From positions 38,931-102,930 of the forward strand of contig JACPKF010000001.1 in assembly GCA_016187125.1 (NCBI GenBank): a DNA stretch of 64,000 bases, written 5' to 3'. A model generated the notes under the pieces. It was given only the letters and a program-made list of their open reading frames with translations, ran no database searches and was not told the origin of the DNA. Made by a program: the position numbers and the translations under genes. Below, in pieces: positions 6,427 to 51,700 of this stretch (the stretch's first letter is position 1; every line of letters starts with the position of its first letter). Source of the stretch: Candidatus Saccharimonadota bacterium (GTDB taxonomy: Bacteria; Patescibacteriota; Saccharimonadia; Saccharimonadales; UBA10212).

Positions 6427-7452
6427 TTAGAGTGATATTTTTATGCTAGGTCCCATAGTGGTAGTGATATAAAAAGATTTAATATAAGTACCTTTTAGGC
6501 TAGCCGGTTTAGCGGCTTTAATAGCATCTAGGACAACTCCGGCATTTTGGCTAATTTTTTCCGGCCCGAAGCTAACTTTACCTATAGCCAAATGAATAAT
6601 GCCGGCTGGATCAAGTCGATATTCTACCCTGCCGGCTCTAGCTTCTGTTACGGCATTAGGAATGTTAGTTGTGATAGAACCGCTCTTGGGGTTCGGCATT
6701 AAACCTTTGGGTCCAAGTAAGCGAGCATATTTTCCGAGTCTTGGCATAAGACTAGGCGTAGTTATTAGAATGTCGAAATCAATCTGTTCTTTATCCAGCT
6801 TTGCCAGAAAATCATCACCGCCAACTAGATCTGCCCCGGCAGTTTTGGCCTTGGCTGCTTCATCGCCTTCGGCAAAAACCGCAACTCTAATTTTTTTGCC
6901 AGCCCCAGCCGGTAAATTGACCATACCACGGATATTATGATCAGCTTGCTTGGGGTCGACACCCAAGTTGATGTGAAGTTCAACGCTGCTATCAAATTTG
7001 GTGGTGGCAGTCTTGATGGCCAGCTCCAAAGCTTCAGTCACGCTATAAGTTTTAGTTTTATCTACTAGCTTATAGGCCTCACGATATTTTTTGCCAGCTC
7101 GCTCAGATTTGGGCCGGGCTGGTTTTTTAGGAGTTTTCGGCCTGTCTTCACTAGCAATGATGTCTTTTTTGCGAGCCTCCTTGGCTGCTAGTTCCTGGGC
7201 CTCACGGATGGCTTTAGCACTGTGTTTTCCGGCCTTCGCTAAAGCTACGGCGGACTCTGACCCTGCCTTGGTTGTCGCCTTCGATTCGGGGACGTCTAGT
7301 AATTCGGAATTAGAAATTGGCTTTTCAGCCTCAATAATTTTTGGCTCTTCTTTTGCTGCCTTTGTTTTACTTTTTACTATTTTCTTATTGCTAGTTTCTA
7401 ATTTCTGCGCCTTCGGCGTTTTGGGTTTTAAACCCGTCTTTCTATCTACCAT
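6427..7452 (-). CDS. rplA: 50S ribosomal protein L1 with about 119-aa Lys/Ala/Glu-rich N-terminal extension
   Basis: From residue about 120, GKKYREAYKLVDKTKTYSVTEALEL...GPKGLMPNPKSGSIT is canonical L1. GAAGGAG lies 6 nt before the ATG at 7452. Confidence 0.9.
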   Translation of the reverse strand: MVDRKTGLKPKTPKAQKLETSNKKIVKSKTKAAKEEPKIIEAEKPISNSELLDVPESKATTKAGSESAVALAKAGKHSAKAIREAQELAAKEARKKDIIASEDRPKTPKKPARPKSERAGKKYREAYKLVDKTKTYSVTEALELAIKTATTKFDSSVELHINLGVDPKQADHNIRGMVNLPAGAGKKIRVAVFAEGDEAAKAKTAGADLVGGDDFLAKLDKEQIDFDILITTPSLMPRLGKYARLLGPKGLMPNPKSGSITTNIPNAVTEARAGRVEYRLDPAGIIHLAIGKVSFGPEKISQNAGVVLDAIKAAKPASLKGTYIKSFYITTTMGPSIKISL

Positions 7453-8167: not shown

Positions 8168-8267
8168 ATGCTCCCTTCAGTGGGTGAAACTAGCAAATAG
8201 AAATTAGAAACTAGTATTTTCGCTGATTGCTGATTGCTGATTGCTGATTGCTCAATGCGTAGCATTT
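8168..8267 (-). repeat. nusG-rplK spacer, family C (AACTAG/AAATAG heptads followed by four CTGATTG heptads)
   Basis: Plus strand reads GAAACTAGCAAATAGAAATTAGAAACTAG...GCTGATTGCTGATTGCTGATTGCTGATTGC. Confidence 0.7.
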
Positions 8268-20374: not shown

Positions 20375-20492
20375 ACTACTCCTTCGGAGCCATTAACCAT
20401 TAGCCATTTACTATTTACCGCGCATTGACCATTAGCCATGAGCCATGGACTAACGGTGAATGGATAACGTATGGTGAACGGTGACGTAGTCA
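20375..20492 (-). repeat. rplQ-rplM spacer, family A (CCATTA/CCATTT arm and GGTGAA/GGTGAACGG arm)
   Basis: CCATTAACCATTAGCCATTTACTATTTACC...AACGGTGAATGGATAACGTATGGTGAACGGTGA. Confidence 0.7.
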
Positions 20493-22732: not shown

Positions 22733-22892
22733 CAGGCAACCTCCGGTTGCAGCAATAAGCCCGCCTTTGCCATGGCTACGGCGGATAGACAATAAGCAAT
22801 AAGCCATAAGCCAGTCCGTTTAAGCGGACTGCTAAGTTGCAATCCTTTTTGCATTTTGCATTTTGCATTTTGCTGAAAAATGTTGAGCATTT
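22733..22892 (-). repeat. rpsK-rpsD spacer containing the 60-nt repeat copy (22748-22812), a GTCCGTTTAAGCGGAC hairpin and three GCATTTT repeats
   Basis: 22748-22812 is near-identical to 23875-23938. Confidence 0.75.
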
Positions 22893-23360: not shown

Positions 23361-23472
23361 AAGACACTCCTTCCAGTCGCTTTAGCTACTCGCTGAAAGC
23401 TATGAGCTGAGAGCCGAAATGCAGCGGCTAGGGGCACTAAGCTAGGGACTCTAAGCTGATGATTGTAGGCAA
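23361..23472 (-). repeat. rpsM-rpsK spacer, family B
   Basis: In mRNA sense it reads ATGATTGCCTACAATCATCAGCTTAGAGTCCCTAGCTTAG...TAGCTAAAGCGACTGGAAGGAG, homologous to 28406-28525 and 28922-29044. Confidence 0.7.
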
Positions 23473-23859: not shown

Positions 23860-23985
23860 GTGCGAACTCCGTTCGCGGTAATAAGCCCGCCTTTGCCATG
23901 GCTACGGCGGATAGACAATAAGCCATAAGCCATAAGCCTTCTTGCTTTATGCTTCTTGCTCTACGCTTAAAAATGCTACGCATTT
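23860..23985 (-). repeat. rpmJ-rpsM spacer containing the second 60-nt repeat copy (23875-23938)
   Basis: TAATAAGCCCGCCTTTGCCATGGCTACGGCGGATAGACAATAAGCCATAAGCC. Confidence 0.75.
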
Positions 23986-27409: not shown

Positions 27410-27509
27410 CAGACATTCCTCCCAGTTGCGAGAACTAGTGAATAGTAACTAGGAATTAGTTTTTTCACCGCTTTCTGATGGCCATTTACTAATTGCTTAA
27501 GGAATAGCA
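27410..27509 (-). repeat. rplR-rpsE spacer, family C
   Basis: GAGAACTAGTGAATAGTAACTAGGAATTAG...CCATTTACTAATTGCTTAAGG. Confidence 0.6.
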
Positions 27510-28405: not shown

Positions 28406-28525
28406 AAAAAGCTCCTTGCAGTCGCTTTAGCTAACAGCTGATAGTCCTTGGCTGATAGCCTGAATGAAGCGGCTAAGAGCTGAGAGCTAAGAGCTAATGG
28501 CTCATGATGAATGTAATGATTCATT
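28406..28525 (-). repeat. rpsH-rplF spacer, family B
   Basis: In mRNA sense it reads ATGAATCATTACATTCATCATGAGCCATTAGCTCTTAGCTCTCAGCTCTTAGCCGCTTCATTCAGGC...GTTAGCTAAAGCGACTGCAAGGAG. Confidence 0.75.
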
Positions 28526-28921: not shown

Positions 28922-29044
28922 CAGACGCTCCTTTCAGTCGCTCCAGCTGTGAGCTGATGGCTGTTAGTAAAGAGCCGGATTGAAGCGGCTAAGGACTCTA
29001 AGCTAAGGACTCTAAGCTGATGATGAATGTAATGAATCATATTC
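28922..29044 (-). repeat. rpsN-rpsH spacer, family B
   Basis: In mRNA sense it reads ATGATTCATTACATTCATCATCAGCTTAGAGTCCTTAGCTTAGAGTCCTTAGCCGCTTCAATCCGGC...GGAGCGACTGAAAGGAG. Confidence 0.75.
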
Positions 29045-30093: not shown

Positions 30094-30217
30094 TAGGGCA
30101 GCCTCCGACTTATAAAACAAACTACATGGTTTTTCCTATCGGATTTTTTGGGGTAAGTCCAAACTCCGCAGACAGCGGGATCGGTCCATGGTTTTTTCCT
30201 TAATTCCAAATATATCA
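30094..30217 (-). repeat. rplX-rplE spacer, family F (homologous to 34845-34937)
   Basis: GGTTTTTCCTATCGGATTTTTTGGGGTAAGTCCAAACTCCGCAGACAGCGGGATCGGTCCATGGTTTTTTCCTTAATTCCAA. Confidence 0.7.
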
Positions 30218-30604
30218 TTATTTAAGTTCCTTACCACTAGACTTCAAGATACGTCGTTTCGAGCCGTCGTTAAAAGATTTAAAACCGATTCTTGAAGGTT
30301 TTTTTGAACCAGAATCAAGTAGACCAACTTTGCTTACCCAGATCGGCTTGGTGATTTCAATAATTCCGCCTTGAGGTGATAGGCGAGCCGGTTTTTTGTG
30401 GCGTTTGACGATGTTAATACCTTCCACGGTAACTTTATTCAGAGCCGGATGAATTTGAAGTATTTTTCCGGTATGGGCTTTATACTTTCCGCTTCTAATC
30501 ATTACTTCGTCGCCTTTTTTCAACCGAATCTTATACACCTTTTTGGTTATCGCTTTTTGCCTGTCCACCGTAGCCTTGGCGAAGGCGGACTTTTTGCTTG
30601 TCAT
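30218..30604 (-). CDS. rplX: 50S ribosomal protein L24 (N- and C-terminally extended as called)
   Basis: [30 protein letters not shown] core. The ATG overlaps the rplN stop (ATGA). The first 25 codons contain the 32-nt repeat element, so the true start is uncertain (alternative GTG near 30529). Confidence 0.85.
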
Positions 30605-31540: not shown

Positions 31541-31673
31541 TACTGATCTCTCTTGCCAATCATAGCAACTAGCAAATAGCAACTAGGAAATAATACTTTC
31601 CCTAATTGCTTATTACCTGCCCGCCATAGCCTCGGCGAAGGAGGGCTAATTGTTAATTGCCTGAACCGCAGCA
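31541..31673 (-). repeat. rpmC-rpsQ spacer, family C, plus a diverged copy of the 32-nt element (31616-31645)
   Basis: CATAGCAACTAGCAAATAGCAACTAGGAAATAA...CTAATTGCTTATTACCTGCCCGCCATAGCCTCGGCGAAGGAGGGC. Confidence 0.6.
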
Positions 31674-32302: not shown

Positions 32303-32393
32303 GCTCTACCTCCGGTAAAGCCATTAACCATTAGCCATTTACTATTTACCATTGTGAACGGTGAACGGTGAACGGTGAATGGGAATGACGGAG
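32303..32393 (-). repeat. rpsC-rplP spacer, family A (three CACCGTT repeats pairing with AATGGTA-type repeats)
   Basis: In mRNA sense, CATTCACCGTTCACCGTTCACCGTTCAC-A-ATGGTAAATAGTAAATGGCTAATGGTTAATGG. ACCGTT/AATGGT pairs include a G.U wobble only on the transcribed strand. Confidence 0.7.
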
Positions 32394-33026: not shown

Positions 33027-33135
33027 CAGTCGCTCCTTCCAGTCGCTTGAGGAACTAGAAAATAGTAAATAGAAACTAGCCGACCGAATCCTACAGCTGT
33101 TTTTACTAATTTCTGATTACTAATTGCTAATTTCA
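33027..33135 (-). repeat. rplV-rpsC spacer, family C
   Basis: GAGGAACTAGAAAATAGTAAATAGAAACTAG...TACTAATTTCTGATTACTAATTGCTAATTTC. Confidence 0.65.
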
Positions 33136-34780: not shown

Positions 34781-34937
34781 TACTGCGCCTCCGGCTTATA
34801 GGACAAACCTACAGTACTATCACCCCGCAAAACTTGTTTTGCGGGGACCCCGGTTTTTCCTATCGGACCTTTTGGAATAAATCCAAATCCGCCTGGGCGG
34901 ACCGGTCCTTTCTTTTCCCTTAACTTCAAGAGGGACA
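34781..34937 (-). repeat. rplW-rplB spacer, family F (homologous to 30094-30217), plus a CCCCGCAAAAC..GTTTTGCGGGG hairpin
   Basis: GGTTTTTCCTATCGGACCTTTTGGAATAAATCCAAATCCGCCTGGGCGGACCGGTCCTTTCTTTTCCCTTAACTTCAA. Confidence 0.7.
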
Positions 34938-35264
34938 TTACTTCTTCTCCTTCTTGGAGGAATTATCAGAATCGGCAAAAAATGGCAGTTTATCTCCGTC
35001 TTTCAACGTGACATAGGCTTTATGGCTGGCTGGCCGGGCAGTTTTAACAAACTTGCCTCGCCTTTTATAGGATCTAAGCGGCTTGGGCGCGACTTGGTTC
35101 AAACGCACGGCTTGAACGCCTACTTTATATTGGGAAGTAACTGCCCTGGCAACTTCGAACTTATTGATACCAGCCGGCACGTCAAAAACATAGGTGTTTA
35201 GCGTTTCGCTGGCAGCATAGGCCTTTTCACTCAGCCTTGGCTTTAGCGCTATTAGCTTAAACAT
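34938..35264 (-). CDS. rplW: 50S ribosomal protein L23
   Basis: LKPRLSEKAYAASETLNTYVFDVPAGINKFEVARAV. Lies between rplD and rplB. Confidence 0.85.
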   Translation of the reverse strand: MFKLIALKPRLSEKAYAASETLNTYVFDVPAGINKFEVARAVTSQYKVGVQAVRLNQVAPKPLRSYKRRGKFVKTARPASHKAYVTLKDGDKLPFFADSDNSSKKEKK

Positions 35265-35405
35265 CTACAGCTCCTCCAGAGCCATTTAACGTTAGCCATT
35301 TACCGTTTTCCGTACATTTACCATTAGTCATTAACCATTTGTTAACGGTAAACGGATAACGCATGGTGAAGGCTGAACGGTGAAGGGTGAACGAGAAATG
35401 ACCTG
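35265..35405 (-). repeat. rplD-rplW spacer, family A
   Basis: About 90% identical to 36062-36160 over roughly 95 nt (CCATTTA.C.TTAGCCATTTACCGTTTT.CGTACATTTACCATTAGTCATTAACCATTTGTTAACGGT.AACG). Confidence 0.8.
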
Positions 35406-36044
35406 TCATTTCTTTTCCCCTAGCCATTCATGAATAATATCTAAAGCTTTTTTACTGATTACGATTTGATCGGCATTCAAAATATCTAAAACACTTAAAT
35501 AGTTAGTTTGTATGGCTTTGACCAGTGGTAAGTTGCGAGTTGCTCGTTCAACTAGATCATCTTTGAGACTTACAACTAGTAGCACGGAGCCTTGTGAGCC
35601 AATTTTGTTGAGTAGGTTGAGCGTTGGTTTTACTTTGCCGTCCTGGCATTCAAATGTTTCAATAATTTTGATTTTATCGGCTTGAGCCGCCAGACTAAGA
35701 GCCTGACGAAGAGCCAAACGTTTAGCAGAAGTTGTAATCTTGCGAGTGTAATTCTCATTTCCGGTTGGGCCAAAAGCCACACCACCGCCAGTCCAAATAG
35801 GATTTCTGGATGATCCAAAGCGGGCTCTGCCCGTACCTTTCTGACGCCAGGGTTTTTGGCCACCGCCACGAACCTGGCTTCGTTTTTTTGTCTGAGCTAA
35901 ATTTGGCCGGCTGTTGGCCAAATGAGCTAGGTAGACGTCCTTTAACAGTTGATGATTCTTTACATCAACATCGAAAATTGCCTTATCTAGCTTAGCAGGA
36001 GACGAGGCTTTGTTACCGGATTTCGTGAATGTAGTAACAGCCAT
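35406..36044 (-). CDS. rplD: 50S ribosomal protein L4
   Basis: MAVTTFTKSG...RGGGQKPWRQKGTGRARFGSSRNPIWTGGGVAFGP. Start re-called to 36044, with GAAGGAG upstream. Confidence 0.9.
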   Translation of the reverse strand: MAVTTFTKSGNKASSPAKLDKAIFDVDVKNHQLLKDVYLAHLANSRPNLAQTKKRSQVRGGGQKPWRQKGTGRARFGSSRNPIWTGGGVAFGPTGNENYTRKITTSAKRLALRQALSLAAQADKIKIIETFECQDGKVKPTLNLLNKIGSQGSVLLVVSLKDDLVERATRNLPLVKAIQTNYLSVLDILNADQIVISKKALDIIHEWLGEKK

Positions 36045-36186
36045 CACATTGCTCCTTCGGATCCATTTACCATTAGCCATTTACCGTTTTTCGTACATTT
36101 ACCATTAGTCATTAACCATTTGTTAACGGTGAACGAGTAACTCACGGTGAACTGTGAAGGGTAAAAGGTAAAAGATAACGATGTCA
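36045..36186 (-). repeat. rplC-rplD spacer, family A
   Basis: See 35265-35405. In mRNA sense, the arms TTCACCGTTAAC and GTTAATGAC... flank AAATG. Confidence 0.8.
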
Positions 36187-36804
36187 TTACTTTGCCCCTT
36201 TTAATAAAACCAGACCCTTTTTGGGGCCTGGTATTGCGCCTTCTACGCCTATGACACCGAGATCTGGGTTAATAATAGCGATGCGAAGGTTCTTGGTTGT
36301 GACGCGCACATGACCCATCTGACCGGCCATTTTTTTGCCTGGAAAAATGCGTTGGGGGAACATCGAGCCAATCGAACCTGGCCGACGATAACTGCGCCCG
36401 CCGTGCGTTTTACGTCCTCTATGGAAATTATGGCGGGCAATTGTGCCAGCAAATCCCTTGCCCTTTGTAATACCAGTGGCACTGACTTTATCGCCGACTT
36501 CAAAAATATCGGCGCTAAGTTGGTCGCCGATATTTAGCTGGTTTGGTTCGCTAGCTGTGCGGAATTCACGGGTGATCTTTGAGGTGGCTTTAGCCTTCTT
36601 GAGGTGTCCGGCCTGCGGCTTAGCCAGTTTTTTAGCTGTTTCAAAGCCGATCTGCAGGGCATCATAGCCATCAATTTCAGTCGTTTTAACCTGAGTAATA
36701 ACGTTCGGACTGGTTGCCAGCAAAGTCACAGCGGTAGCCACTCCATTGTCTTGGATAATGCTGGTCATACCTAATTTGCGTGTGATCAGTGCTTTCACTG
36801 ACAT
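36187..36804 (-). CDS. rplC: 50S ribosomal protein L3
   Basis: ITRKLGMTSIIQDNGVATAVTLL...TKGKGFAGTIARHNFHRGRKTHG. Confidence 0.93.
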   Translation of the reverse strand: MSVKALITRKLGMTSIIQDNGVATAVTLLATSPNVITQVKTTEIDGYDALQIGFETAKKLAKPQAGHLKKAKATSKITREFRTASEPNQLNIGDQLSADIFEVGDKVSATGITKGKGFAGTIARHNFHRGRKTHGGRSYRRPGSIGSMFPQRIFPGKKMAGQMGHVRVTTKNLRIAIINPDLGVIGVEGAIPGPKKGLVLLKGAK

Positions 36805-37021
36805 TTATTCCTTCTTCTTTAATGATTTTAAATATCAATTCCATTGATACCTTTTTTGATAAATTTAGATAGTCTAAAGTGCATGAGTTGTACAGTATCT
36901 ACTTCTGATAATTGATGTAGACTTGCACTAAAACAAAGCCACTCGGAGTCGCTATCCCTAACAGATTACCATAAACTGCTTGAAAGAGTCAATCCGCTGT
37001 AAATATCACATTAAATAGCAC

Positions 37022-37030
37022 TGCTATACT
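37022..37030 (+). promoter_or_regulatory. extended -10 element (TGC-TATACT), 11 nt upstream of the acyltransferase ATG
   Basis: TG at 37022-37023 and TATACT at 37025-37030. There is no SD before the ATG at 37042. Confidence 0.35.
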
Positions 37031-37041
37031 ACATCCTAAAC

Positions 37042-37830
37042 ATGATTACTCCGCAAGAAATGTTCTGGAAAATCGGTGATAACCCCAACAAACTTCCTTA
37101 TAACTCCCAGATTGAACACCCATTCAGCTACATATTAAATACCATAGTAGCTAATACAATTTGGGGTCTTCGCGGGAACGTTATGACGAGCGGCGTTGAA
37201 AATTTACCCAAAGATGGACCGTACGCTTTGATGCCTAAGCATAGTGATTTGCTGGATATACCGGTAGTCGGGAAAAGTCTTCTAGACTTTACGGGTAACA
37301 CCGCCGCCTTTTTATTCAAAAAAGAATTAAGCGAAGTGGAGTTTAAAAGTATCAGACTAGGACCAATTATCAAATGGTGGTTTGAGCGATGCGGCGCTAT
37401 CATGTATGATCGGCATGCAACCGTAGAACAACAGCCCGAAGTTGCTCAGAAAATAGGCAAGGTCATGCTTCGAGGCGGTATATTTATAAGCTTCATTGAA
37501 GGTACAAGAGTACGTGGTGGTGTATTGGGAAAAACAGATAAAGGAATCGCTATGCTGGCTGTGCAGCACGGCGTTATTCTAATTCCAACAGGAGTGAGTG
37601 GAACCGAAGAGCGCGAAGGTATTTATACCGTGCATTTTGGTGAAGGCTTAAACCAAGAGAGAGTTCAAATAGATCGCAGCTCAGATAACAGAGCCTTCGT
37701 AAAGGCAGCCCGTCGGATCGCCAACGGTATAGACCCCGGTATGCAGGACGCTTTAGAAAAAGCAAGGGCTCGCCGCGGCGAGGAACTAAAAAAACGCAAC
37801 CAACAACTGGTAGTAGTAGGTCGCCATTAA
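37042..37830 (+). CDS. plsC: lysophospholipid (1-acyl-sn-glycerol-3-phosphate) acyltransferase family protein
   Basis: HX4D motif PKHSDLLD and FIEGTR motif. It is a lone plus-strand gene between rpsJ and rplC. Confidence 0.72.
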   Translation: MITPQEMFWKIGDNPNKLPYNSQIEHPFSYILNTIVANTIWGLRGNVMTSGVENLPKDGPYALMPKHSDLLDIPVVGKSLLDFTGNTAAFLFKKELSEVEFKSIRLGPIIKWWFERCGAIMYDRHATVEQQPEVAQKIGKVMLRGGIFISFIEGTRVRGGVLGKTDKGIAMLAVQHGVILIPTGVSGTEEREGIYTVHFGEGLNQERVQIDRSSDNRAFVKAARRIANGIDPGMQDALEKARARRGEELKKRNQQLVVVGRH

Positions 37831-37918
37831 AAAATAGATTATTGTGGTTTCGGCGCTTGCCCCGCAGGTTTACATTTTTATCTCAGTCCATTCGACAAGC
37901 TCAGGACTTCGATCAGGA

Positions 37919-38323
37919 TTACATCTTGATCTCAGCGTCGCAGCCAGCGGGCAAAGATAGATTCATGAGTGAATCAACGGTTTTAGGTGTGGGATCAGTA
38001 ATGTCTATAAGACGCTTATGAACCCGCATTTCAAACTGTTCGCGACCTTTTTTATAAACGTGGGGGCTTTTGACAACTGTGTAGGTGCTGCGCCGCGTAG
38101 GCAAAGGTATCGGACCGGAAATATTAGCACCAGTTCGCAGAGCCGTTTCGACAATTTGCTTAGCCGATTGGTCAATGACTTTATGATCATAGGCTTTTAA
38201 GCGAATTCGTATCCTTTGTTTGGGCTCATCAGATGATTGCCGTTCTTTAGAAGTAGAAACCTTTGGCTTCACTACCGAGCTTTGTTTGACTTCCGTTCCG
38301 GTTTTTTTATTCTCAGCTTTCAA
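37919..38323 (-). CDS. rpsJ: 30S ribosomal protein S10 with about 30-aa N-terminal extension
   Basis: [41 protein letters not shown]. The TTG start overlaps the upstream stop (TTGA), with AGGAG 8 nt upstream. Confidence 0.88.
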
Positions 38324-38682
38324 TGATTGCGCTCCTGAATGAACCGTCCTAGAACGCCAACTACATATGACTTCGAATCAGACTCACTCGCAATTTCTTC
38401 AATAGCGTCCACTCGAGATTTAACAGGATTGTTAAATCCGGTATTATATTCTAAATCATCATTAGGCAGCACATCCACGAATGTGTATGGTCTACCATTG
38501 GGATAAATCCTTAATCCCATGCGACCTCTATACAATGCTGATGCGGGCTCAGTTGGCATTAACCACTCTCCGCCACTGCCAAAGCCGGGGCCAGAAAACT
38601 TAAATTCTATAGCTTCGAAGTTGCGCCCCCATACATCAGTCTCGCCGAATGTCGGTTCAGATAGTCTTACATCGAGTGGCAT
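38320..38682 (-). CDS. hypothetical 120-aa protein between tuf and rpsJ
   Basis: The ATG lies 4 nt after the tuf TAA, and the stop overlaps the rpsJ start. No family recognised. Confidence 0.45.
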
Positions 38683-39868: not shown

Positions 39869-40062
39869 TCTTAAATTTCTCCTTTGTAGAAATTATTTAT
39901 CATTTTTCAATTCACAATTTTCATTGATTTGTCAATTTACATTTTTCATTGTTCGGAAATGATCAATGGTCAATGTGAAATTAATGTTAAATGCCTAATG
40001 TGAAATGTTAAATATTGCTATGCGGGCATAGCAATAGATATGCCCCATGCGATTACCCGTGT
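39869..40062 (-). repeat. tuf 5' leader with a TTCAATT/TTTCATTG-type arm, a CAATGTGAAAT-type arm, and overlapping ATTGCTATGC/GCATAGCAAT and GGGCATA/TATGCCC hairpins
   Basis: CAATTCACAATTTTCATTGATTTGTCAATTTACATTTTTCATTG...CAATGGTCAATGTGAAATTAATGTTAAATGCCTAATGTGAAATG. Confidence 0.55.
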
Positions 40063-40092
40063 ATTATAAGTTAAACTTTGCCTTTTTGTAAA
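40063..40092 (-). promoter_or_regulatory. candidate tuf promoter TTTACA-18-TATAAT
   Basis: Minus strand carries TTTACA at 40092-40087 and TATAAT at 40068-40063, directly after the fabD stop. Confidence 0.4.
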
Positions 40093-40099
40093 GAAGTTA

Positions 40100-43995: not shown

Positions 43996-44100
43996 GACGA
44001 GCTCCGGTCGTAGAAATTAGAAAGTAGAAACTAGGAACTAGCTTTGCTGCGCTTAATTGCTTATTGCTAATTGCTAATTGCTTAAAAATGCTTTGCATTT
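43996..44100 (-). repeat. rpsL-rpsG spacer, family C
   Basis: GTAGAAATTAGAAAGTAGAAACTAGGAACTAG...CTTAATTGCTTATTGCTAATTGCTAATTGC. Confidence 0.65.
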
Positions 44101-44511: not shown

Positions 44512-44665
44512 TAGGTAGCTCCTTTCGTCGCTACAACTACCATTTGCCATTTATCACTAGCCAAATTATTTTCCATTTGCCATTTATCCAGAGTTTTTGT
44601 AAATGCTAAATGGTACCTAATTGGTAAATGCGAATTGGTAATTGGTAAATTTCTTGTTGAGTCTA
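44512..44665 (-). repeat. rpoC-rpsL spacer, family A variant (CCATTTGCCATTTATC twice / AATTGGTAAATG arm)
   Basis: CCATTTGCCATTTATCAC...CCATTTGCCATTTATCC...AAATGGTACCTAATTGGTAAATGCGAATTGGTAATTGGTAAAT. Confidence 0.6.
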
Positions 44666-47600: not shown

Positions 47601-48505
47601 AGTACCGTTACGCACATGCTTGACGGTTTAATGCCAGCACGCTCCATACTCTCGAGCAGGCGCAGTCGCTTCATAATTTTCTTCTTGCGCTGGCCTTTGG
47701 CTTCATCAGCTTCTTTATTTAAATCTTTAATTAGCTTACTAAGGTCAACTTCATCCAACAGCTCTTTAATGGCTGCGCCGCCCATACCGACCTTAATCAA
47801 TGATTGTAGATTATCTGGCAAGCTTCGGTAGTCTGTCTCACTCAGCAGATTAAACTTGGCAAGCACCGAAATCACATTTTTAAATTGCTCTGCTTTAGCC
47901 GCCAGCTCTTCAAGTTCACGAGCTTGGGTTTGAGCTAACTCCTTAACATTCGCTCCACCGGTTGGTAGCTTCTTTTCGGCCTCGGCTTTATACTTGGCTT
48001 TAATAGCAGACTCGGTGGCAGTGAAGCTGGCTTGCTTATCGGCTATGATTTTATCTAGGGCAGCGGTGTTAACATTTTTAATAATGTAACTAGCAAAGTA
48101 AGCAATACGTTCTAGATTTTTGACAGTCATGCCCAGAAGCAAGCCAATCGCACTGGGTGTGCCACGCAAAAACCAAATATGTGCTGCAGGACAAGCCAGA
48201 GTGACGTGACCCATTCGTTCGCGCCGGACAATACTGCGAGTAACCAATTCACCGTTTTTATCAACCGCTGCTTCACGGCTGCGAACCCCTTTGTATTTAG
48301 CATCGTGTGGGTTGATATCCTTAACAGGGCCAAAAATACGTTCACAGAACAAACCATCACGTTCCGGTTTCTGGGTTCGATAATTTATAGTTTCAGGTTT
48401 GGTGACTTCCCCATAACTCCAATCCAATATGTCGTCTGGGCTGGCGATGGCTAGTCGAACAGCGTCAAAATCGGCAATATTGGTTCCAGGGTTATAATTT
48501 CTCAC
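44666..48505 (-). CDS. rpoC: DNA-directed RNA polymerase subunit beta-prime
   Basis: 1279 aa containing NADFDGDQMAVH (catalytic Mg site). Preceded by CGACTGAAAGGAG. Confidence 0.96.
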   Translation of the reverse strand: MRNYNPGTNIADFDAVRLAIASPDDILDWSYGEVTKPETINYRTQKPERDGLFCERIFGPVKDINPHDAKYKGVRSREAAVDKNGELVTRSIVRRERMGHVTLACPAAHIWFLRGTPSAIGLLLGMTVKNLERIAYFASYIIKNVNTAALDKIIADKQASFTATESAIKAKYKAEAEKKLPTGGANVKELAQTQARELEELAAKAEQFKNVISVLAKFNLLSETDYRSLPDNLQSLIKVGMGGAAIKELLDEVDLSKLIKDLNKEADEAKGQRKKKIMKRLRLLESMERAGIKPSSMCVTVLPVIPPDLRPMVQLTGGRFATSDLNDLYRRVINRNNRLKKLMELNAPEVIRRNEQRMLQEAVDALIDNNNARSGRAVAATGQRRRLKSLSDMLKGKQGRFRQNLLGKRVDYSGRSVIVAGPELKMYQCGLPKTMALELFKPFVIGRLIDQELAHNIRSATRMLETGDSVVWDALDEVIKNKYVLLNRAPSLHRLSIQAFQPVLIEGKAIQLHPLVCKGFNADFDGDQMAVHLPLGEKAQAEASNIMASNKNLLKPADGSPILHVEQDIVLGCYYLTYQRPGTENEKPVDFASLEEALLALDDGLINLQNRVNIPFRGEVRDTTVGRLLFNEIFPEDFPFQNVAMTNKKLDLVMTMTYQKYGQDATALIADDLKDLGFSYATYSGLSISMNDFSDLTELPKIVEEGEARATEISKQYGAGFITDDERYRLTVETWTDVDTKVEQALAEQFATEDNTMSIAIASGARGNISQMKKSVGMLGMFADATGRAIELPVRSNYKYGLSPLEYFTATRGTRKSLIDIALRTADSGYLTRRLVDVAQDVFTVKQDCEDPGFPVHRSESEAINIAFGGRLIGRFAAENVKRYVKAGAMITPEIAKAIEEDETVKTVRIMSVLSCASVRGVSQESYGLDLATGRLVANDYPIGVIAAQSIGEPGTQLSLDSKHRAGAVTARDDVTQGLTRVEELLEVRTPKGQAFLTDITGVVNTWEEGDHYIVQVTAKKQKPVEISIGDRHPSIKTGDEVNLGDVIAANEDGSEPIHATMVGKVSVDKNGVTITPTAKSTINYEIPGFKQLLVADGDSVVAGQRLTNGSINLHELMRLQGIEATQCYIMNEILYIFASQGQTIADKHLEVIIRQMFSRVQIEDSGDSQFITGDIVSKLAVVEANEKLVKAKKRVVKYNQLLLGITKASLSTDSFLSAASFQDTTRVLIAAATSGKVDRLYGLKENVILGRLIPVGTGAQKDDDKETAAADLATEVKQ

Positions 48506-48551
48506 ATGCAGCTCCTTTCAGTCGCTTAGGTAAAATATGAAATGCTAGATG

Positions 48552-48680
48552 TGAAGCGCTCCACGGACTAAAGTCCATGGCTTCAGGCTTGCGGCTTTCG
48601 GAGCGTGGAACCCCGCACCGAAAGCCAGAACTGGCATTCAGCCCCGAACTAAAGTTCGAGGCTTTCTGGTGCGTGGGTAA
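48552..48680 (-). repeat. 130-nt structured repeat, copy 2 (element sense is the minus strand, i.e. mRNA sense, in the rpoB-rpoC spacer)
   Basis: Its reverse complement aligns with 9477-9606 at about 85% identity, with indels. Hairpins are CCTCGAAC-TTTA-GTTCGGGG and CCATGGAC-TTTA-GTCCGTGG. Confidence 0.75.
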
Positions 48681-48769
48681 GAAGCTAGCTGCGATGAATG
48701 TTCGTATCTGATTATTGCTTATTACTATTTGCCTGTCCACCGTAGCCTTGGCGAAGGCGGGCTTATTGC

Positions 48770-51700
48770 TCATGAGGCGGCCTCTTCGCTAGTTTCATCG
48801 TCACTACTACCATTGACCGTTATGCCAGCAGCTAGACCATTATCGTCGATATCAACAGTTGTGGTGTCGTCAAGATGCGCGCTGCTAAATTGATCTGCCA
48901 CGTTGTTATCGGTTACACCGACGTCACCGATTATGCCTACAGGAGGGGTAATCTTAGGCGCATGAGCGGCTTCGTCTTTAATATTGCGGGCCAGAACTTC
49001 TTCGGCGTCAATAATCTTATTGTCACTGGTAAGCAAATCAACTTTAAGCCCAAGGCCCTGAAGTTCTTTGACAAGTACATTGAAGCTTTCCGGTACTTTC
49101 GGTCCTTGGATCGGTGTACTTTTAATAATGCTTTCATAAGCTTTAGCCCGACCATAAACGTCATCAGATTTAATGGTTAGCATTTCCTGAAGGGTATGAG
49201 CCGCCCCATAAGCTTCCAAGGCCCAGACTTCCATTTCGCCAAAGCGTTGGCCGCCGTTTTGGGCTTTACCGCCAAGAGGCTGCTGGGTGACCATAGTATA
49301 TGGTCCCGTAGAGCGAGCATGAATTTTGTCGCTAACCATATGATTAAGTTTAATAATGTACATACTGCCGACTGTTGTACGTTCGGAGAATGCCTGACCA
49401 GTGCGTCCATCATAAAGTTGCTGCTTACCATCGGTAGGCAGTCCTGCCTCCTTTAAGAGGCTTTGGATCTTATCATTTGGTACGCCGTTAAAGGACGGGC
49501 TGGCTACTTTTATGCCGAGTGCTTGGGCGGCCATCCCTAGATGAGTTTCAAATAATTGGCCAATATTCATGCGTGATGGGACACCCAGTGGGTTAAGAAT
49601 GATATCAATCGGCGTGCCACCTTCGTTAAATGGCATATCTTCTATAGGTAGGATTCTAGCAATAACACCTTTGTTACCGTGCCGTCCGCCGAGTTTATCG
49701 CCAACGCTGATTTTGCGCATTTGGGCTACAAAAACCTGAATCTGCATGATAACGCCGGCTTTCAGCTCATGCCCGGAAGCCCGTGAGAAAACTTTAACGC
49801 CAACGACTTTGCCATGCCGGCCGGTGCTCATGCGCTGAGAAGTATCACGAACTTCTTTGGCTTTTTCGCCAAAAATTGCTCGCAGCAAGCGTTCTTCACT
49901 GGAAAGTTCTTGCTCGCCTTTTGGCGTAATTTTGCCCACCAAAATGTCGCTGGGATGAACTTCGGCGCCGATGCGCACAATGCCATCTTCGTCAAGGTGT
50001 CTGAGTGACTCTTCGGAGACGTTAGGAATATCGCGGGTAACAATTTCTGGACCTAACTTGGTTTCGCGAACTTCGGTCATGTAGTCCACGATATGGATCG
50101 AGGTTAGAGTGTCATCTTCAACTAGTCGCCGCGAAATAATAATTGCATCTTCGAAGTTATAACCGGACCAGGGCATAAAAGCTACTAGCAGATCTTTACC
50201 TAGAGCTAGTTCACCATTTTGGGTACTCATACCTTCAATTATCGGCTGCCCGGCTTTGACTCTGTCGCCACTATCTACAACTACGATTTGATTAATGCAA
50301 CTGCCTTCGTTACTGCGCATAAAGTGCACGGGATTGTAGGTAACTTTTTTGCCGGTTTTGTATTTGACGACTACTTCATCAGCCGTAGCTTTTAAGACTT
50401 CACCATCAGCCTCAGCGGTAATTAATTGGCCAGTATTGGCAGCTACTACTTCCTCAAAGCCAGTGCCTACAACCGGACTCTTCGGCTGAATGAGCGGTAC
50501 AGCTTGTCGCTGCTGGTTAGAGCCCATTAAGGACCGAAGCACGTAGTTTTTTTCTATGAATGGCACTAACCCAGCACTACTACCAATGGTTTGGGCGCGG
50601 CTGGCGTCCATATGAGTAATTTCATTAGCGTCAACCTCACCTGGCTCCAAACGATTGCGGACACTTATGCGAGCATCAATAAAGTAGCCGTCTTTGTCGA
50701 TTTCGTTACCGGCGCCGGCAATTACAGCTTGCAATTCCTCCGACGCATCTAGATAAATTATTTGATTGGTAACCTTGGCTTTAACAGGCCAAGTCTTTCT
50801 AGATTTAACCGCTGCTAGCCTCTTGGCAGCAGCGACTGTTATGAGCGCGCCGGCTTTAACAATAGTGGTACCTTTTTCGTTTTCAAGATTAACCGCCGCA
50901 ATATGACCAGGAGCTTCTTTAGGCGTAACAGAATTAATAACTTTTCTATAAGGGGTTTCGATAAAGCCATATTCATTAATACGAGCATAGCTGGCCAAGT
51001 TGAGTACCAGACCGATATTAGCCCCTTCCGGAGTTTCCACCGGACAGATGCGGCCATAATGGGTGGCATGGGCGTCGCGAACTTCAAAGCCGGCCCGTTC
51101 ACGTGATAAGCCGCCTGGCCCCATAGACGAAAGACGGCGTTTGTGTGCTAGTTCGGATAGCGGATTAATCTGGTCCATAAACTGTGACAGCTGAGAACTG
51201 GCAAAGAATTCGCGAACGGCGGCCACAACCGGACGGGCATTTATAAGCTGCGCCGGCGTGACTGTTTCTATATCGGACATCGACATGCGATCTTTAGCGT
51301 TACGCTCCATTCTAAGCAGGCCGATTCGGAACTGACGCTGAACCAGCTCGCCAACTAGTTTGACTCGGCGGTTGGCTAAGCTGTCAATTTCATCACCCGG
51401 TTCCTGAGTGTTATTGAGGCGAATAATTTCGGCAATGATAGCGACGAGATCTTCGATCCGCATTACTCGGTTTGCGGAATTATTAGGCACCTCCAAGTTC
51501 AAGCGTTTATTGAGTTTGTAACGACCGACTTTACCAAAATCGAAGCGCTTAAAGTTGTAAAGCATGTTTTCTATGAGACTCCGGGCATTTTCAACAGTCG
51601 CCAAATCGCCCGGCCGCAGCCGTCTATAGACTTCAATCAAAGCTTCGTTAGTACTGTGCGCCGGGTCCTTTTCTAGCGTTGCATCTACATAACTGTGCTC

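What the first reader, a model, noticed from the sequence alone, without database searches (positions are those of the whole stretch)
35265..36186. Family A: the two spacers flanking rplD are about 90% identical over roughly 95 nt
35282-35375 and 36062-36155 share CCATTTA.C.TTAGCCATTTACCGTTTT.CGTACATTTACCATTAGTCATTAACCATTTGTTAACGGT.AACG..TAAC.CA.GGTGAA. Looser relatives lie at 20375-20492 and 32303-32393, with an arm-only version at 44512-44665.

In mRNA sense the element starts just after the upstream stop codon. It ends with GGTAAATGG repeats that abut the SD of the next gene (TCCGAAGGAG / TCTGGAGGAG).

Such high identity between neighbouring non-coding spacers, while the flanking genes are unrelated, implies recent duplication, gene conversion or strong selection.
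Basis: seen in the sequence. Interest (0 to 1): 0.6.

Follow-up and report, generated by a model that had tools for sequence, protein, structure and literature searches.

The report
Conserved repeat cassettes between ribosomal genes
The two look-alike spacers on either side of the ribosomal protein L4 gene are copies of a small non-coding repeat element that has spread between ribosomal protein genes in one group of tiny Saccharibacteria, and it changes more slowly than the genes around it, so it probably has a function.

Summary
The rplC-rplD spacer (36045-36186) and the rplD-rplW spacer (35265-35405) align without gaps at 108/128 positions (84%), and at 90% over 92 nt. Shuffled controls score far lower.

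The window comes from a Candidatus Saccharibacteria genome. Both spacers are copies of a 90-160-nt modular element, "family A". From 5' to 3' it has:
- a palindromic stop module (TAG-TCA-TGA-CTA / ATGAC-nnn-GTCAT)
- CCGTTCA-type 7-nt repeats
- a palindromic 6-nt centre
- GGTAAAT-type 7-nt repeats
- a small hairpin holding the ribosome-binding site (SD), 5-9 nt before the start codon.

I found about 16 distinct copies in four Saccharimonadales genomes and in metagenomes. All lie in sense orientation, and every copy whose upstream end I read starts at or just after the stop codon of a translation or transcription gene. All but one (downstream of EF-G in L004) end 3-9 nt before a ribosomal-protein start codon. 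Two relatives have abutting genes at these junctions, and one junction can hold different families in different genomes, so the elements move or get replaced.

Orthologous copies are 79-84% identical while synonymous sites are saturated (30-35%). The rplD pair's identity is therefore near the family norm. Only its centre and 3' arm (94%) suggest local conversion.

The RNA-level role (looping out the insert, gating the SD) is inferred, not shown. This is a new variant of the heptamer-repeat / REP / MITE kind.

The parts
36045..36186 (-). Family A element, copy c2, filling the rplC-rplD spacer (142 nt). Its 5' arm is degenerate (TTTTACC units) and its predicted hairpin is weak.
   Evidence: nhmmer 126 bits in sense against 28 bits in antisense. 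MFE -30.9 kcal/mol, z about -1.
35265..35405 (-). Family A element, copy c1, filling the rplD-rplW spacer (141 nt). The rplD stop codon TGA (35406-35408) is part of its 5' mini-palindrome TGAC-AG-GTCA.
   Evidence: nhmmer 134 bits in sense against 35 bits in antisense. MFE -39.2 kcal/mol, z -2.2 to -2.5; the base of the hairpin pairs nt 1-10 with nt 119-129.
35347..35395 (-). c1 5' arm: CCGTTCA / CCTTCAC-type 7-nt units (mRNA sense). The matching arm in c2 is 36128-36182.
   Evidence: TRF period 7/14 at 35365-35393. Lag-7 autocorrelation 0.49 against 0.245 in coding DNA. 72% identical between c1 and c2.
35341..35346 (.). Palindromic hexamer GTTAAC at the centre of dyad symmetry in c1 (in c2: 36122-36127). 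Other family members have TGATCA or AAGCTT at the same place.
   Evidence: Read directly.
35279..35340 (-). c1 3' arm: GGTAAAT / GGTTAAT / GGCTAAT-type 7-nt units (in c2: 36060-36121). Together with the centre, this is the part that is 94% identical between c1 and c2.
35269..35280 (-). SD module of c1 (CTCTGGAGGAGC), 5 nt upstream of the rplW ATG (35262-35264). In c2 it is TCCGAAGGAGC at about 36050-36060, upstream of the rplD ATG (36042-36044).
   Evidence: Related copies fold this module into an anti-SD / triloop / SD mini-hairpin.
32303..32393 (-). Family A element in the rpsC(S3)-rplP(L16) spacer. It is orthologous to copies in L004, L126, L131, L136 and L139. The S3 stop codon TGA lies inside the element's ATGAC-TCC-GTCAT hairpin, and the SD sits in an 8-bp hairpin GCTTTACC-GGA-GGTAGAGC.
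   Evidence: (E = 1e-18).
20375..20492 (-). Family A element in the rplQ(L17)-rplM(L13) spacer.
   Evidence: (E = 2e-31).
44551..44665 (-). Related but distinct heptamer hairpin in the rpoC-rpsL spacer (arms TTTACCA / AAATGGC). Not a family A member by the HMM.
35406..36044 (-). rplD (ribosomal protein L4, 212 aa). 100% identical to an NCBI Candidatus Saccharibacteria protein.
36187..36804 (-). rplC (ribosomal protein L3).
34938..35264 (-). rplW (ribosomal protein L23).

Best explanation
The two rplD-flanking spacers are two copies of 'family A'. This is a non-coding, modular, orientation-specific element of about 90-160 nt that sits between cistrons in a clade of Saccharimonadales (Candidatus Saccharibacteria, CPR).

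SHOWN
- Each copy begins at or just after the stop codon of the upstream gene with a palindromic stop module: TAG-TCA-TGA-CTA overlapping ATGAC-nnn-GTCAT. The TGA sometimes serves as the gene's stop codon.
- It continues with an array of CCGTTCA-type 7-nt units, a palindromic hexamer centre (GTTAAC, TGATCA or AAGCTT), and an array of GGTAAAT-type units. The second array pairs with the first at 5-6 of 7 positions.
- All but one copy (downstream of EF-G in L004, which has no clear SD) end with a strong SD, usually inside a 4-8-bp mini-hairpin, 3-9 nt before the next start codon.
- Copies occupy different junctions of the ribosomal-protein and rpoA operons in different genomes. Some relatives have abutting or overlapping genes at the same junctions, and other heptamer families can occupy the same junction.
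- The element sequence changes more slowly than synonymous sites.

INFERRED
1. The elements spread by some form of transposition or illegitimate recombination. A trans-acting factor that recognises their sequence is likely, but none was identified.
2. In the polycistronic mRNA the long imperfect hairpin loops the insert out, which puts the upstream stop codon next to the downstream SD.
3. The cassette supplies its own stop and its own structure-gated SD, replacing the ancestral stop/start overlap (TAATG). That makes the insertion tolerable, and the element now tunes or insulates translation of the downstream ribosomal protein. It may also protect or mark the mRNA for processing.
4. The especially high identity of the centre and 3' arm of the two rplD copies reflects local conversion or a shared subfamily origin.
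For: Family and anatomy
- Ungapped 84% alignment of the two rplD copies.
- A family-A HMM finds 11 full-length copies in the window, L004, L126 and L128. All are in sense and score far better in sense than in antisense.
- The 5'-terminus pattern found 9 more copies in metagenomes, all in sense. These sit at L35-L20, rpoA-L17, S3-L16, L18-S5 and S11-S4.
- Shared ends, centre and SD module are visible directly.
- A three-part fold recurs: 5' mini-hairpin, long hairpin, SD mini-hairpin. z-scores range from -1 to -8.
- The SD hairpin stem covaries among S3-L16 orthologues: GCTTTACC/GGTAGAGC against GCACC/GGTGC.

Turnover
- The junction matrix of six genomes shows L001 and L127 compact (-8 to +3 nt at most junctions). 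The window, L004, L126 and L128 carry 62-220-nt spacers, most of them 7-nt-periodic, at different subsets of junctions.
- S8-L6 holds family A in L004 and L128, family C in the window, and nothing in three genomes. L18-S5 holds family B in the window and L004, and family A in L126 and L132.

Constraint
- Four-fold sites are 33-39% identical between the six genomes.
- Orthologous elements: 131/157 identical with no indels against 58% at four-fold sites. 74/88 = 84% with no indels against 34%, and 79-82% against 30-35%.
- Substitutions between orthologues disrupt the hairpin less than random ones do (fraction of null at least as good 0.005-0.06 in sense).

Specificity
- 18 of 33 spacers in translation-gene clusters are 7-nt-periodic, against 0 of 23 elsewhere (Fisher p = 5.5e-6).

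Not explained by known signals
- No Rfam match even at E <= 1.
- No promoter or terminator signal in these spacers.
Against: - No transposase, RAYT or reverse transcriptase is encoded in the 64-kb window. No target-site duplication was seen at filled versus empty sites. The mobility mechanism is unknown, and differential loss plus replacement cannot be fully excluded with six genomes.
- Folding energy does not favour the mRNA strand: -590.7 kcal/mol in sense against -610.3 in antisense, summed over 23 spacers.
- RNAalifold finds no covariation in the long hairpin.
- The palindromic hexamer at the centre points to DNA-level dyad symmetry. The RNA-level role is therefore not demonstrated.
- Copy c2 has a weak hairpin (z about -1), and its differences from c1 are no kinder to the structure than random changes.
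- The source genome outside the window could not be searched.
Confidence: 0.6

Rival explanations
1. The similarity of the two rplD spacers is only the trace of a recent local duplication or gene conversion between neighbouring spacers. The sequence itself has no function.
For: The centre plus 3' arm are 65/69 = 94% identical between c1 and c2, more than between c1 and any copy in another genome. The copies lie only 781 nt apart and are almost the same length.
Against: The 5' arms are only 72% identical, less than c1 shares with several copies in other genomes. Whole-element identity to a copy at another junction in another genome is the same (82.9% against 84.4%). Orthologous copies are conserved well above synonymous sites, so high identity does not need a recent event. 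The flanking genes are unrelated, so conversion would have to be limited to the element.
Confidence: 0.25
2. The elements act at the DNA level, like REP/BIME elements of enterobacteria. They would be imperfect palindromes in highly transcribed operons that bind gyrase or a nucleoid protein, or extrude as cruciforms. The SD at the end would be only a requirement for tolerated insertion.
For: Folding potential is the same on both strands. The centre of symmetry is a perfect palindromic hexamer with no loop. The periodic mismatch every 7 nt would keep a long palindrome stable in DNA. The elements are enriched in the most highly expressed gene clusters. Substitutions between orthologues spare the dyad symmetry on both strands.
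Against: All of about 16 distinct copies lie in the same orientation relative to transcription. Their ends coincide with the stop codon and, in all but one, the SD, including a covarying SD mini-hairpin. A purely DNA-level site would not require this. No binding protein is known.
Confidence: 0.2
3. They are neutral products of replication slippage, meaning simple heptanucleotide repeats (STRR / LSSR type) that have expanded in spacers. They might act as hypermutable contingency loci.
For: Tandem 7-nt units are the dominant feature: about 70 TRF rows, most of them period 7 or 14. Arrays of the same units (GGTTAAT, ATTAACC) occur in Bacteroidota, Cyanobacteriota, Chloroflexota and Acidobacteriota. 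Heptamers are the commonest long simple repeat in bacteria (Mrazek 2007, as summarised in PMC4679880).
Against: Orthologous copies have identical length and no indels despite 42-66% change at synonymous sites. Non-periodic ends and centre are conserved across genomes. The two arms keep different unit types in a fixed order. The flanking genes are essential ribosomal-protein genes.
Confidence: 0.07
4. The two spacers are operators for autoregulation by ribosomal protein L4, analogous to the S10-leader control in E. coli.
For: Both copies flank rplD.
Against: The same family lies at S3-L16, L17-L13, S8-L6, L18-S5, rpoA-L17, L35-L20 and S11-S4. In L001 and L127 both rplD junctions are empty. In L004 and L126 the L4-L23 junction is empty, and L3-L4 holds a different family. 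No Rfam ribosomal-protein leader matches.
Confidence: 0.02

Closest known systems
STRR (short tandemly repeated repetitive) sequences of heterocystous cyanobacteria and, more generally, long heptanucleotide simple-sequence repeats (Mazel 1990 from my own knowledge; Mrazek 2007 as summarised in PMC4679880)
   Same: Tandem 7-nt units, several unit families per genome, intergenic location, unknown function. Some unit sequences are the same ones found in cyanobacterial and Bacteroidota arrays.
   Different: The host is a CPR bacterium. Two different arrays sit in a fixed order as an imperfect palindrome, with conserved non-periodic ends, a palindromic centre and an SD module. Whole-element homology is conserved across genomes, and the location is strictly between stop and start.
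TAACTGA heptamer repeats of marine Beggiatoaceae, some Cyanobacteria and Bacteroidetes (MacGregor 2015, PMC4679880)
   Same: Heptamer arrays immediately upstream of start codons. They are over-represented at translation genes and lie inside ribosomal-protein operons. A translational role and horizontal spread are suspected.
   Different: Those are almost only direct repeats of one unit, and most lack a canonical ribosome-binding site. Here the arrays are inverted and carry a strong SD. Presence/absence and purifying selection are documented here.
REP / BIME / REPIN elements (Enterobacteria, Pseudomonas; REPIN paper PMC3116915; the rest from my own knowledge)
   Same: Extragenic imperfect palindromes inside operons, just after stop codons. 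They are co-transcribed and form hairpins. They occur as families with conserved sequence, thought to be moved in trans.
   Different: REPs are 20-40 nt, lack 7-nt periodicity, occur in both orientations, carry no SD and are tied to a RAYT transposase. No RAYT was seen here, though only 64 kb could be checked.
Bacterial MITEs such as Correia (Neisseria), ERIC/IRU, RUP/BOX and Nezha (my own knowledge)
   Same: Size of about 100-150 nt, inverted arms, non-coding, multi-copy. Filled and empty sites exist between related genomes. They are co-transcribed with neighbouring genes and can supply expression signals.
   Different: No target-site duplication and no parent insertion sequence were found. 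The arms are heptamer arrays. Insertion is confined to stop/start junctions of translation operons in one orientation.
Small dispersed repeats (SDR) of Nostoc (Elhai et al. 2008, my own knowledge; the paper was not held)
   Same: Very small hairpin repeats nested inside heptamer arrays. Compare the 30-nt and 72-nt GC-rich hairpins nested in the arrays here.
   Different: This concerns the nested inserts, not family A itself. The phylum differs.

Membership tests
STRR / heptanucleotide simple-sequence repeats | Tandem repeats of a 7-nt unit | tested here: met
   TRF period 7/14 in both rplD spacers. Lag-7 autocorrelation 0.49-0.50 against 0.245 +/- 0.045 in coding DNA.
STRR / heptanucleotide simple-sequence repeats | Intergenic location with many loci per genome | tested here: met
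   Eighteen of the 33 spacers in the window's translation-gene clusters are 7-nt-periodic (one more lies next to nusG), and all such spacers are intergenic.
STRR / heptanucleotide simple-sequence repeats | Host is a heterocystous cyanobacterium (the original definition of STRR) | tested here: not met
   The L4 protein is 100% identical to a Candidatus Saccharibacteria protein, and all close relatives are Saccharimonadales or Patescibacteria.
STRR / heptanucleotide simple-sequence repeats | A simple repeat, with no element-level homology beyond the unit | tested here: not met
   Conserved non-periodic ends, centre and SD module. Full-length HMM hits occur only in Saccharimonadales.
MITE | Small (50-500 nt), non-coding, multi-copy | tested here: met
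   88-160 nt without nested inserts (220 nt with one), with about 16 distinct copies. No ORF is required.
MITE | Terminal inverted repeats | tested here: inconclusive
   The arms are complementary at only 5-6 of 7 positions per unit. The outermost ends (stop module and SD module) are not inverted copies of each other.
MITE | Target-site duplication | tested here: not met
   No duplication is visible when filled and empty junctions are compared. The sites are old and diverged, so this is a weak negative.
MITE | A related autonomous element supplying transposase | not testable with these tools
   There is none in the 64-kb window. The rest of the genome could not be read.
MITE | Filled versus empty orthologous sites | tested here: met
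   Junction matrix and site comparisons.
REP / REPIN | Short (20-40 nt) imperfect palindrome, often in inverted pairs, extragenic | tested here: not met
   It is extragenic and palindromic, but 90-160 nt long and 7-nt-periodic.
REP / REPIN | Associated RAYT (IS200/IS605-like) gene in the genome | not testable with these tools
   None in the window. The whole genome is not available.
Ribosomal-protein leader / autoregulatory RNA (for example the S10 leader) | Conserved structured RNA at a fixed operon position across relatives, matching an Rfam family | tested here: not met
   No Rfam hit at E <= 1. The position varies between genomes.
Intrinsic terminator | GC-rich hairpin followed by a run of T | tested here: not met
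   No terminator-like site in the family-A spacers.

The most novel reading that the evidence does not exclude
A previously undescribed class of self-contained 'intercistronic cassettes' in CPR bacteria. These would be mobile, orientation-locked, non-coding elements that insert exactly at the stop/start overlap of translationally coupled ribosomal-protein genes. They bring their own tandem stop codons, a loop-out hairpin made of heptamer arrays, and a structure-gated SD. They would be kept under purifying selection because a still unknown trans-acting factor reads the heptamer arrays. Because the same units recur in arrays across distant phyla, that factor or mechanism could be shared widely. 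It could finally explain the long-unexplained STRR / heptamer repeats of cyanobacteria, Bacteroidota and Beggiatoaceae.
Probability: 0.3. Interest if true: 0.8.

Novelty: new variant of a known kind. Interest (0 to 1): 0.62.

Why it matters
CPR / Saccharibacteria genomes are regarded as extremely streamlined, and ribosomal-protein operons as the most tightly packed and conserved gene arrays in bacteria.

Here, about 100-nt repeat cassettes separate most ribosomal-protein genes in some lineages and none in sister lineages. The cassettes are more conserved than the coding DNA beside them. That points to one of two things:
- an unrecognised layer of post-transcriptional control of ribosome synthesis in these organisms
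- an unusually well-adapted selfish element that has learnt to live at stop/start junctions.

It also offers a tractable comparative system: many filled and empty sites, and several families sharing one architecture. This could be used to attack the 35-year-old question of what heptanucleotide (STRR-type) repeats do.

On the practical side, gene callers place spurious small ORFs in these spacers and extend neighbouring genes through them.

Tried and rejected
- Rfam at gathering threshold over the whole window, and at E <= 1 over 31.5-37.1 kb, found only tRNAs.
- Looking up the source contig by exact protein failed twice.
It showed cross-phylum recurrence of the units but no further family-A copies.
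- Two viral-contig scans (5' terminus and 3' arm) found nothing.
- Compensatory-change tests between the arms found none in c1 against c2. RNAalifold on 7 copies gave a covariation term of +0.19. Heptamer register ambiguity makes such alignments unreliable.
- A strand-asymmetry test of folding (G-U pairs) found no preference for the mRNA strand.
- A promoter / terminator scan found nothing in the spacers.
- Pfam scans of 40 of the window's ORFs (ribosomal and non-ribosomal) found no transposase, RAYT or reverse transcriptase.
- I considered and rejected an L4 operator, an intrinsic terminator, an integron attC site (no cassette context) and a chance low-complexity match.
- Literature searches found nothing describing such elements in Saccharibacteria or Patescibacteria. 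Elhai 2008 is not held in the library.
Full report
**1. The observation**

The genes here lie on the minus strand: rplC (36187-36804), rplD (35406-36044) and rplW (34938-35264). The spacers are 36045-36186 (142 nt) and 35265-35405 (141 nt).

- They align without gaps over 128 nt at 108/128 = 84%.
- The longest stretch at 90% or more is 35279-35370.
- Shuffled controls reach an alignment score of 23 at most, against 156 observed.

**2. Where the window comes from**

The L4 protein is 100% identical to an NCBI 'Candidatus Saccharibacteria bacterium' protein on a 397-kb contig. The next relatives are only 77-79% identical, and all are Saccharimonadales or Patescibacteria. The rest of the window holds the usual translation and transcription clusters: L11-L1-L10-L12, rpoBC, str, S10-spc-alpha and L13. 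It also has housekeeping genes and no mobile-element genes.

**3. What the spacers are made of**

Tandem Repeats Finder reports about 70 arrays in the window, most of them period 7 or 14. Of 33 spacers of at least 40 nt in the translation-gene clusters, 18 have a lag-7 autocorrelation of 0.40-0.59. Coding DNA gives 0.245 +/- 0.045 with a maximum of 0.39. None of 23 spacers elsewhere in the window reaches 0.40 (Fisher p = 5.5e-6).

Each such spacer carries one heptamer array after the stop codon and a second, partly complementary array before the SD. Together they form a long imperfect hairpin. Several families exist:
- Family A: GTTCACC / GGTAAAT
- Family B: AGCAATT / CTAGTTT
- Family C: AGCTCTT-type
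- others.

**4. Family A is a defined element, not just a repeat**

I compared the S10-spc-alpha region in five relatives: L001, L004, L126, L127 and L128. Family A copies share these features:
- a 5' end of (TAG)TCATGACTnCGTCATTCC. TAGTCATGACTA is a perfect palindrome with two in-frame stops, and ATGAC-nnn-GTCAT is a mini-hairpin.
- CCGTTCA-type units
- the stretch CACyATGyGTTATCCGTTyACCGTTA
- a palindromic hexamer centre (GTTAAC, TGATCA or AAGCTT)
- GGTTAAT / GGCTAAT / GGTAAAT units, including GGTAAATGTAyGG
- a 3' end of AATGGCTAATGGTTAATGGC
- an SD inside a mini-hairpin such as CTCC-GAA-GGAG, GGCC-GGA-GGCC or GCTTTACC-GGA-GGTAGAGC, present in all but one copy and lying 3-9 nt before the start codon. 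The copy downstream of EF-G in L004 has no clear SD.

An HMM of the family finds 11 full-length copies in the window, L004, L126 and L128. All are in sense orientation, for example 134 bits in sense against 35 in antisense. Loci from other phyla match only the 3'-arm units.

A metagenome scan with the 5' terminus returned 11 loci. Nine are full family A elements, all in sense and all directly after a stop codon. They sit at L35-L20, rpoA-L17 (three loci), S3-L16 (three), L18-S5 and S11-S4.

Well-preserved copies fold into three parts: the 5' mini-hairpin, a long hairpin, and the SD mini-hairpin. z-scores range from -1 to -8.

**5. Turnover**

The junction matrix shows L001 and L127 almost fully compact, with genes overlapping by 1-8 nt or a few nt apart. 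The window, L004, L126 and L128 have 62-220-nt spacers, most of them 7-nt-periodic, at different subsets of junctions. In L004 many spacers cluster at 100-103 nt.

| Junction | Window | Other genomes |
|---|---|---|
| L3-L4 | family A | another family in L004 and L126; empty in L001 and L127 |
| L4-L23 | family A | a different element in L128; empty in four genomes |
| S8-L6 | family C | family A in L004 and L128; empty in three |
| L18-S5 | family B | family B in L004; family A in L126 and L132 |

L001, the closest relative of element-rich L126 (84% amino-acid identity), is compact. Elements are therefore gained, lost or replaced on a timescale shorter than the divergence of these genomes. 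Nested GC-rich hairpins inside family A in L004 and L132 add to the mobile-DNA picture.

I saw no target-site duplication and no transposase, so the mechanism of movement is unknown.

**6. Constraint**

Four-fold degenerate sites in 19 ribosomal-protein genes are only 33-39% identical between any two of the six genomes, which means they are saturated. Orthologous elements are much more conserved:

| Pair | Junction | Element identity | Indels | Four-fold sites |
|---|---|---|---|---|
| L130 / L138 | rpoA-L17 | 131/157 = 83% | none | 58% |
| L126 / L139 | S3-L16 | 74/88 = 84% | none | 34% |
| window / L126 or L139 | S3-L16 | 79-82% | 3 gap columns | 30-35% |

For the two window comparisons and for L126/L139, total coding identity in the flanks is 73-77%. 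The elements are thus more conserved than the adjacent ribosomal-protein coding DNA. Substitutions between orthologues also disrupt the hairpin less than random substitutions do.

This rules out neutral slippage junk and hypermutable contingency repeats. It implies that something reads the sequence.

**7. Back to the two rplD copies**

Their whole-element identity (84.4%) is no higher than that between the rplD-rplW copy and L004's S3-L16 copy (82.9%). The pair is mosaic, however:
- The 5' arm is 72% identical, and c2's arm has decayed to TTTTACC units.
- The centre plus 3' arm is 94% identical, higher than to any foreign copy.

A shared subfamily origin, or local conversion of that half, is plausible. 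No compensatory changes separate the two. c2 folds poorly (z about -1).

**8. How it probably works**

The evidence establishes the anatomy, the orientation, the position at stop/start junctions, the turnover and the constraint. The rest of this section is inferred.

- In mRNA the long hairpin loops out the roughly 100-nt insert, so the upstream stop codon and the downstream SD lie next to each other. In c1, nt 1-10 pair with nt 119-129, directly abutting the UGA and the GGAGGAG.
- The cassette replaces the ancestral TAATG-type coupling with its own stops and its own partly sequestered SD. That makes the insertion tolerable. It may now tune or insulate translation, or stabilise or mark the polycistronic mRNA.

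Three results count against a purely RNA reading. Folding is equally good on the antisense strand. There is no covariation in the long stem. The centre is a loop-less palindromic hexamer. A DNA-level role like that of REP/BIME elements, in highly transcribed operons, remains a serious rival.

An L4 operator is excluded by the distribution of copies. The spacers match neither terminator nor sigma-70 promoter consensus, and no Rfam family matches.

**9. Comparison with what is known**

The closest known things are:
- cyanobacterial STRR and other heptanucleotide repeats
- the TAACTGA repeats of Beggiatoaceae, which also sit before start codons inside ribosomal-protein operons (PMC4679880)
- REP / REPIN elements (PMC3116915)
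- MITEs.

The same 7-nt units (GGTTAAT / ATTAACC), often as inverted arrays, occur in Bacteroidota, Cyanobacteriota, Chloroflexota, Acidobacteriota and one Levyibacteriota genome. Full-length family A is confined to Saccharimonadales in the data I could reach.

I found no description of such elements in CPR bacteria.

I file it as a new variant of a known kind. It shares heptamer arrays with STRR and hairpin-forming intercistronic repeats with REP and MITE elements. It differs in its cassette architecture (stop module, two arrays, SD hairpin), its strict orientation and junction specificity, its host, and its documented purifying selection.

**10. Verdict**

The interest does not lie in rplD. 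It lies in a conserved, apparently mobile family of intercistronic cassettes in the ribosomal-protein operons of a streamlined CPR lineage. I score interest at 0.62.

Noticed in passing
window 8168-8267, 27410-27509, 31583-31673, 33027-33135, 43996-44100: Family B elements: 5' mini-hairpin AAATGCnnnGCATTTTTAAGC, AGCAATT units, then CTAGTTT units, then the SD module AGCGACTGnAAGGAGCGTCT. The first 23 nt of the S12-S7 copy are identical to the start of the L2-S19 spacer of L128, a different genome and junction.
   Followed up: partly
window 23397-23472, 28406-28525, 28922-29044: Family C elements (AGCTCTT / AGCTTAG units, 5' hairpin ATGAAT-CATTAC-ATTCAT). The neighbouring S14-S8 and S8-L6 spacers are 73% identical over 125 nt. 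This is a second pair of look-alike neighbouring spacers.
   Followed up: partly
window 34781-34937 and 30121-30217; L001 L23-L2 spacer: Two spacers without 7-nt periodicity share GGACCG...CCGATAGGAAAAACC. The L23-L2 spacer is also present and similar (…GATAGGAAAAACC…TAGGTTTGTCCTATAAGGCGGAG) in the otherwise compact relative L001. It may be a genuine conserved leader RNA upstream of rplB. No Rfam match.
   Followed up: partly
window 30540-30598, 31596-31654, 48712-48770; also 22736-22812 and 23862-23938: A GC-rich hairpin of about 30 nt (CCTGyCCrCCGTAGCCTTGGCGAAGGCGGrC) is nested inside heptamer arrays. A 77-nt pair is 91% identical. This resembles the small dispersed repeats nested in Nostoc heptamer arrays.
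   Followed up: no
L004 13812-14032 (S3-L16) and L132 (L18-S5): A 72-nt hairpin (CCCCGCACTAAATC...GATTTAGTGTCGGGG) is inserted at the same point of family A, after GGTAAATGTAT(G/T)G, in two different genomes and at two different junctions.
   Followed up: partly
window 30218-30604 (L24 ORF) and 48492-48773 (ORF between rpoB and rpoC): The first ~21 residues of the longest L24 ORF are absent from the tblastn matches in three of five relatives and overlap a repeat element. The 93-aa ORF between rpoB and rpoC also overlaps one. These are probably spacers read as coding sequence. In relatives, gene callers place small ORFs with no recorded Pfam hit between several ribosomal-protein genes.
   Followed up: partly
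window 38320-38682: A 120-aa ORF lies between tuf and rpsJ. A small ORF with no recorded Pfam hit (70-113 aa) sits at the same position in L004, L126 and L127, but I did not compare the sequences.
   Followed up: no
window 36805-37918 (S10-L3 junction): An acyltransferase gene (37042-37830, + strand) interrupts the S10-L3 junction. L004 has an M29 peptidase there and L126 has two small reverse-strand ORFs. The junction seems to be a hot spot for gene insertion.
   Followed up: no
window 39869-40099: The 231-nt spacer upstream of tuf holds 25-nt and 7-nt repeats (AATGTTA / ATTTGTCAATTCACAATTTTCATTG). It also has the best sigma-70-like promoter match of the region (TTTACA-18-TATAAT, minus strand, 40092-40063).
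   Followed up: no
L012, L023, L028, L030, L031, L066, L082 and others: Inverted arrays (TAATGGT)n ... (ACCATTA)n occur in intergenic DNA of Bacteroidota, Acidobacteriota, Chloroflexota and Cyanobacteriota. The same heptamer units and hairpin layout recur across distant phyla.
   Followed up: partly
window 6427-7452 and 1860-2438: The longest ORFs for L1 (341 aa, Pfam domain starting at residue 146) and L7/L12 (192 aa, domains starting at residue 71) have long N-terminal extensions. These are either real extensions or mis-set starts running through upstream spacers.
   Followed up: no
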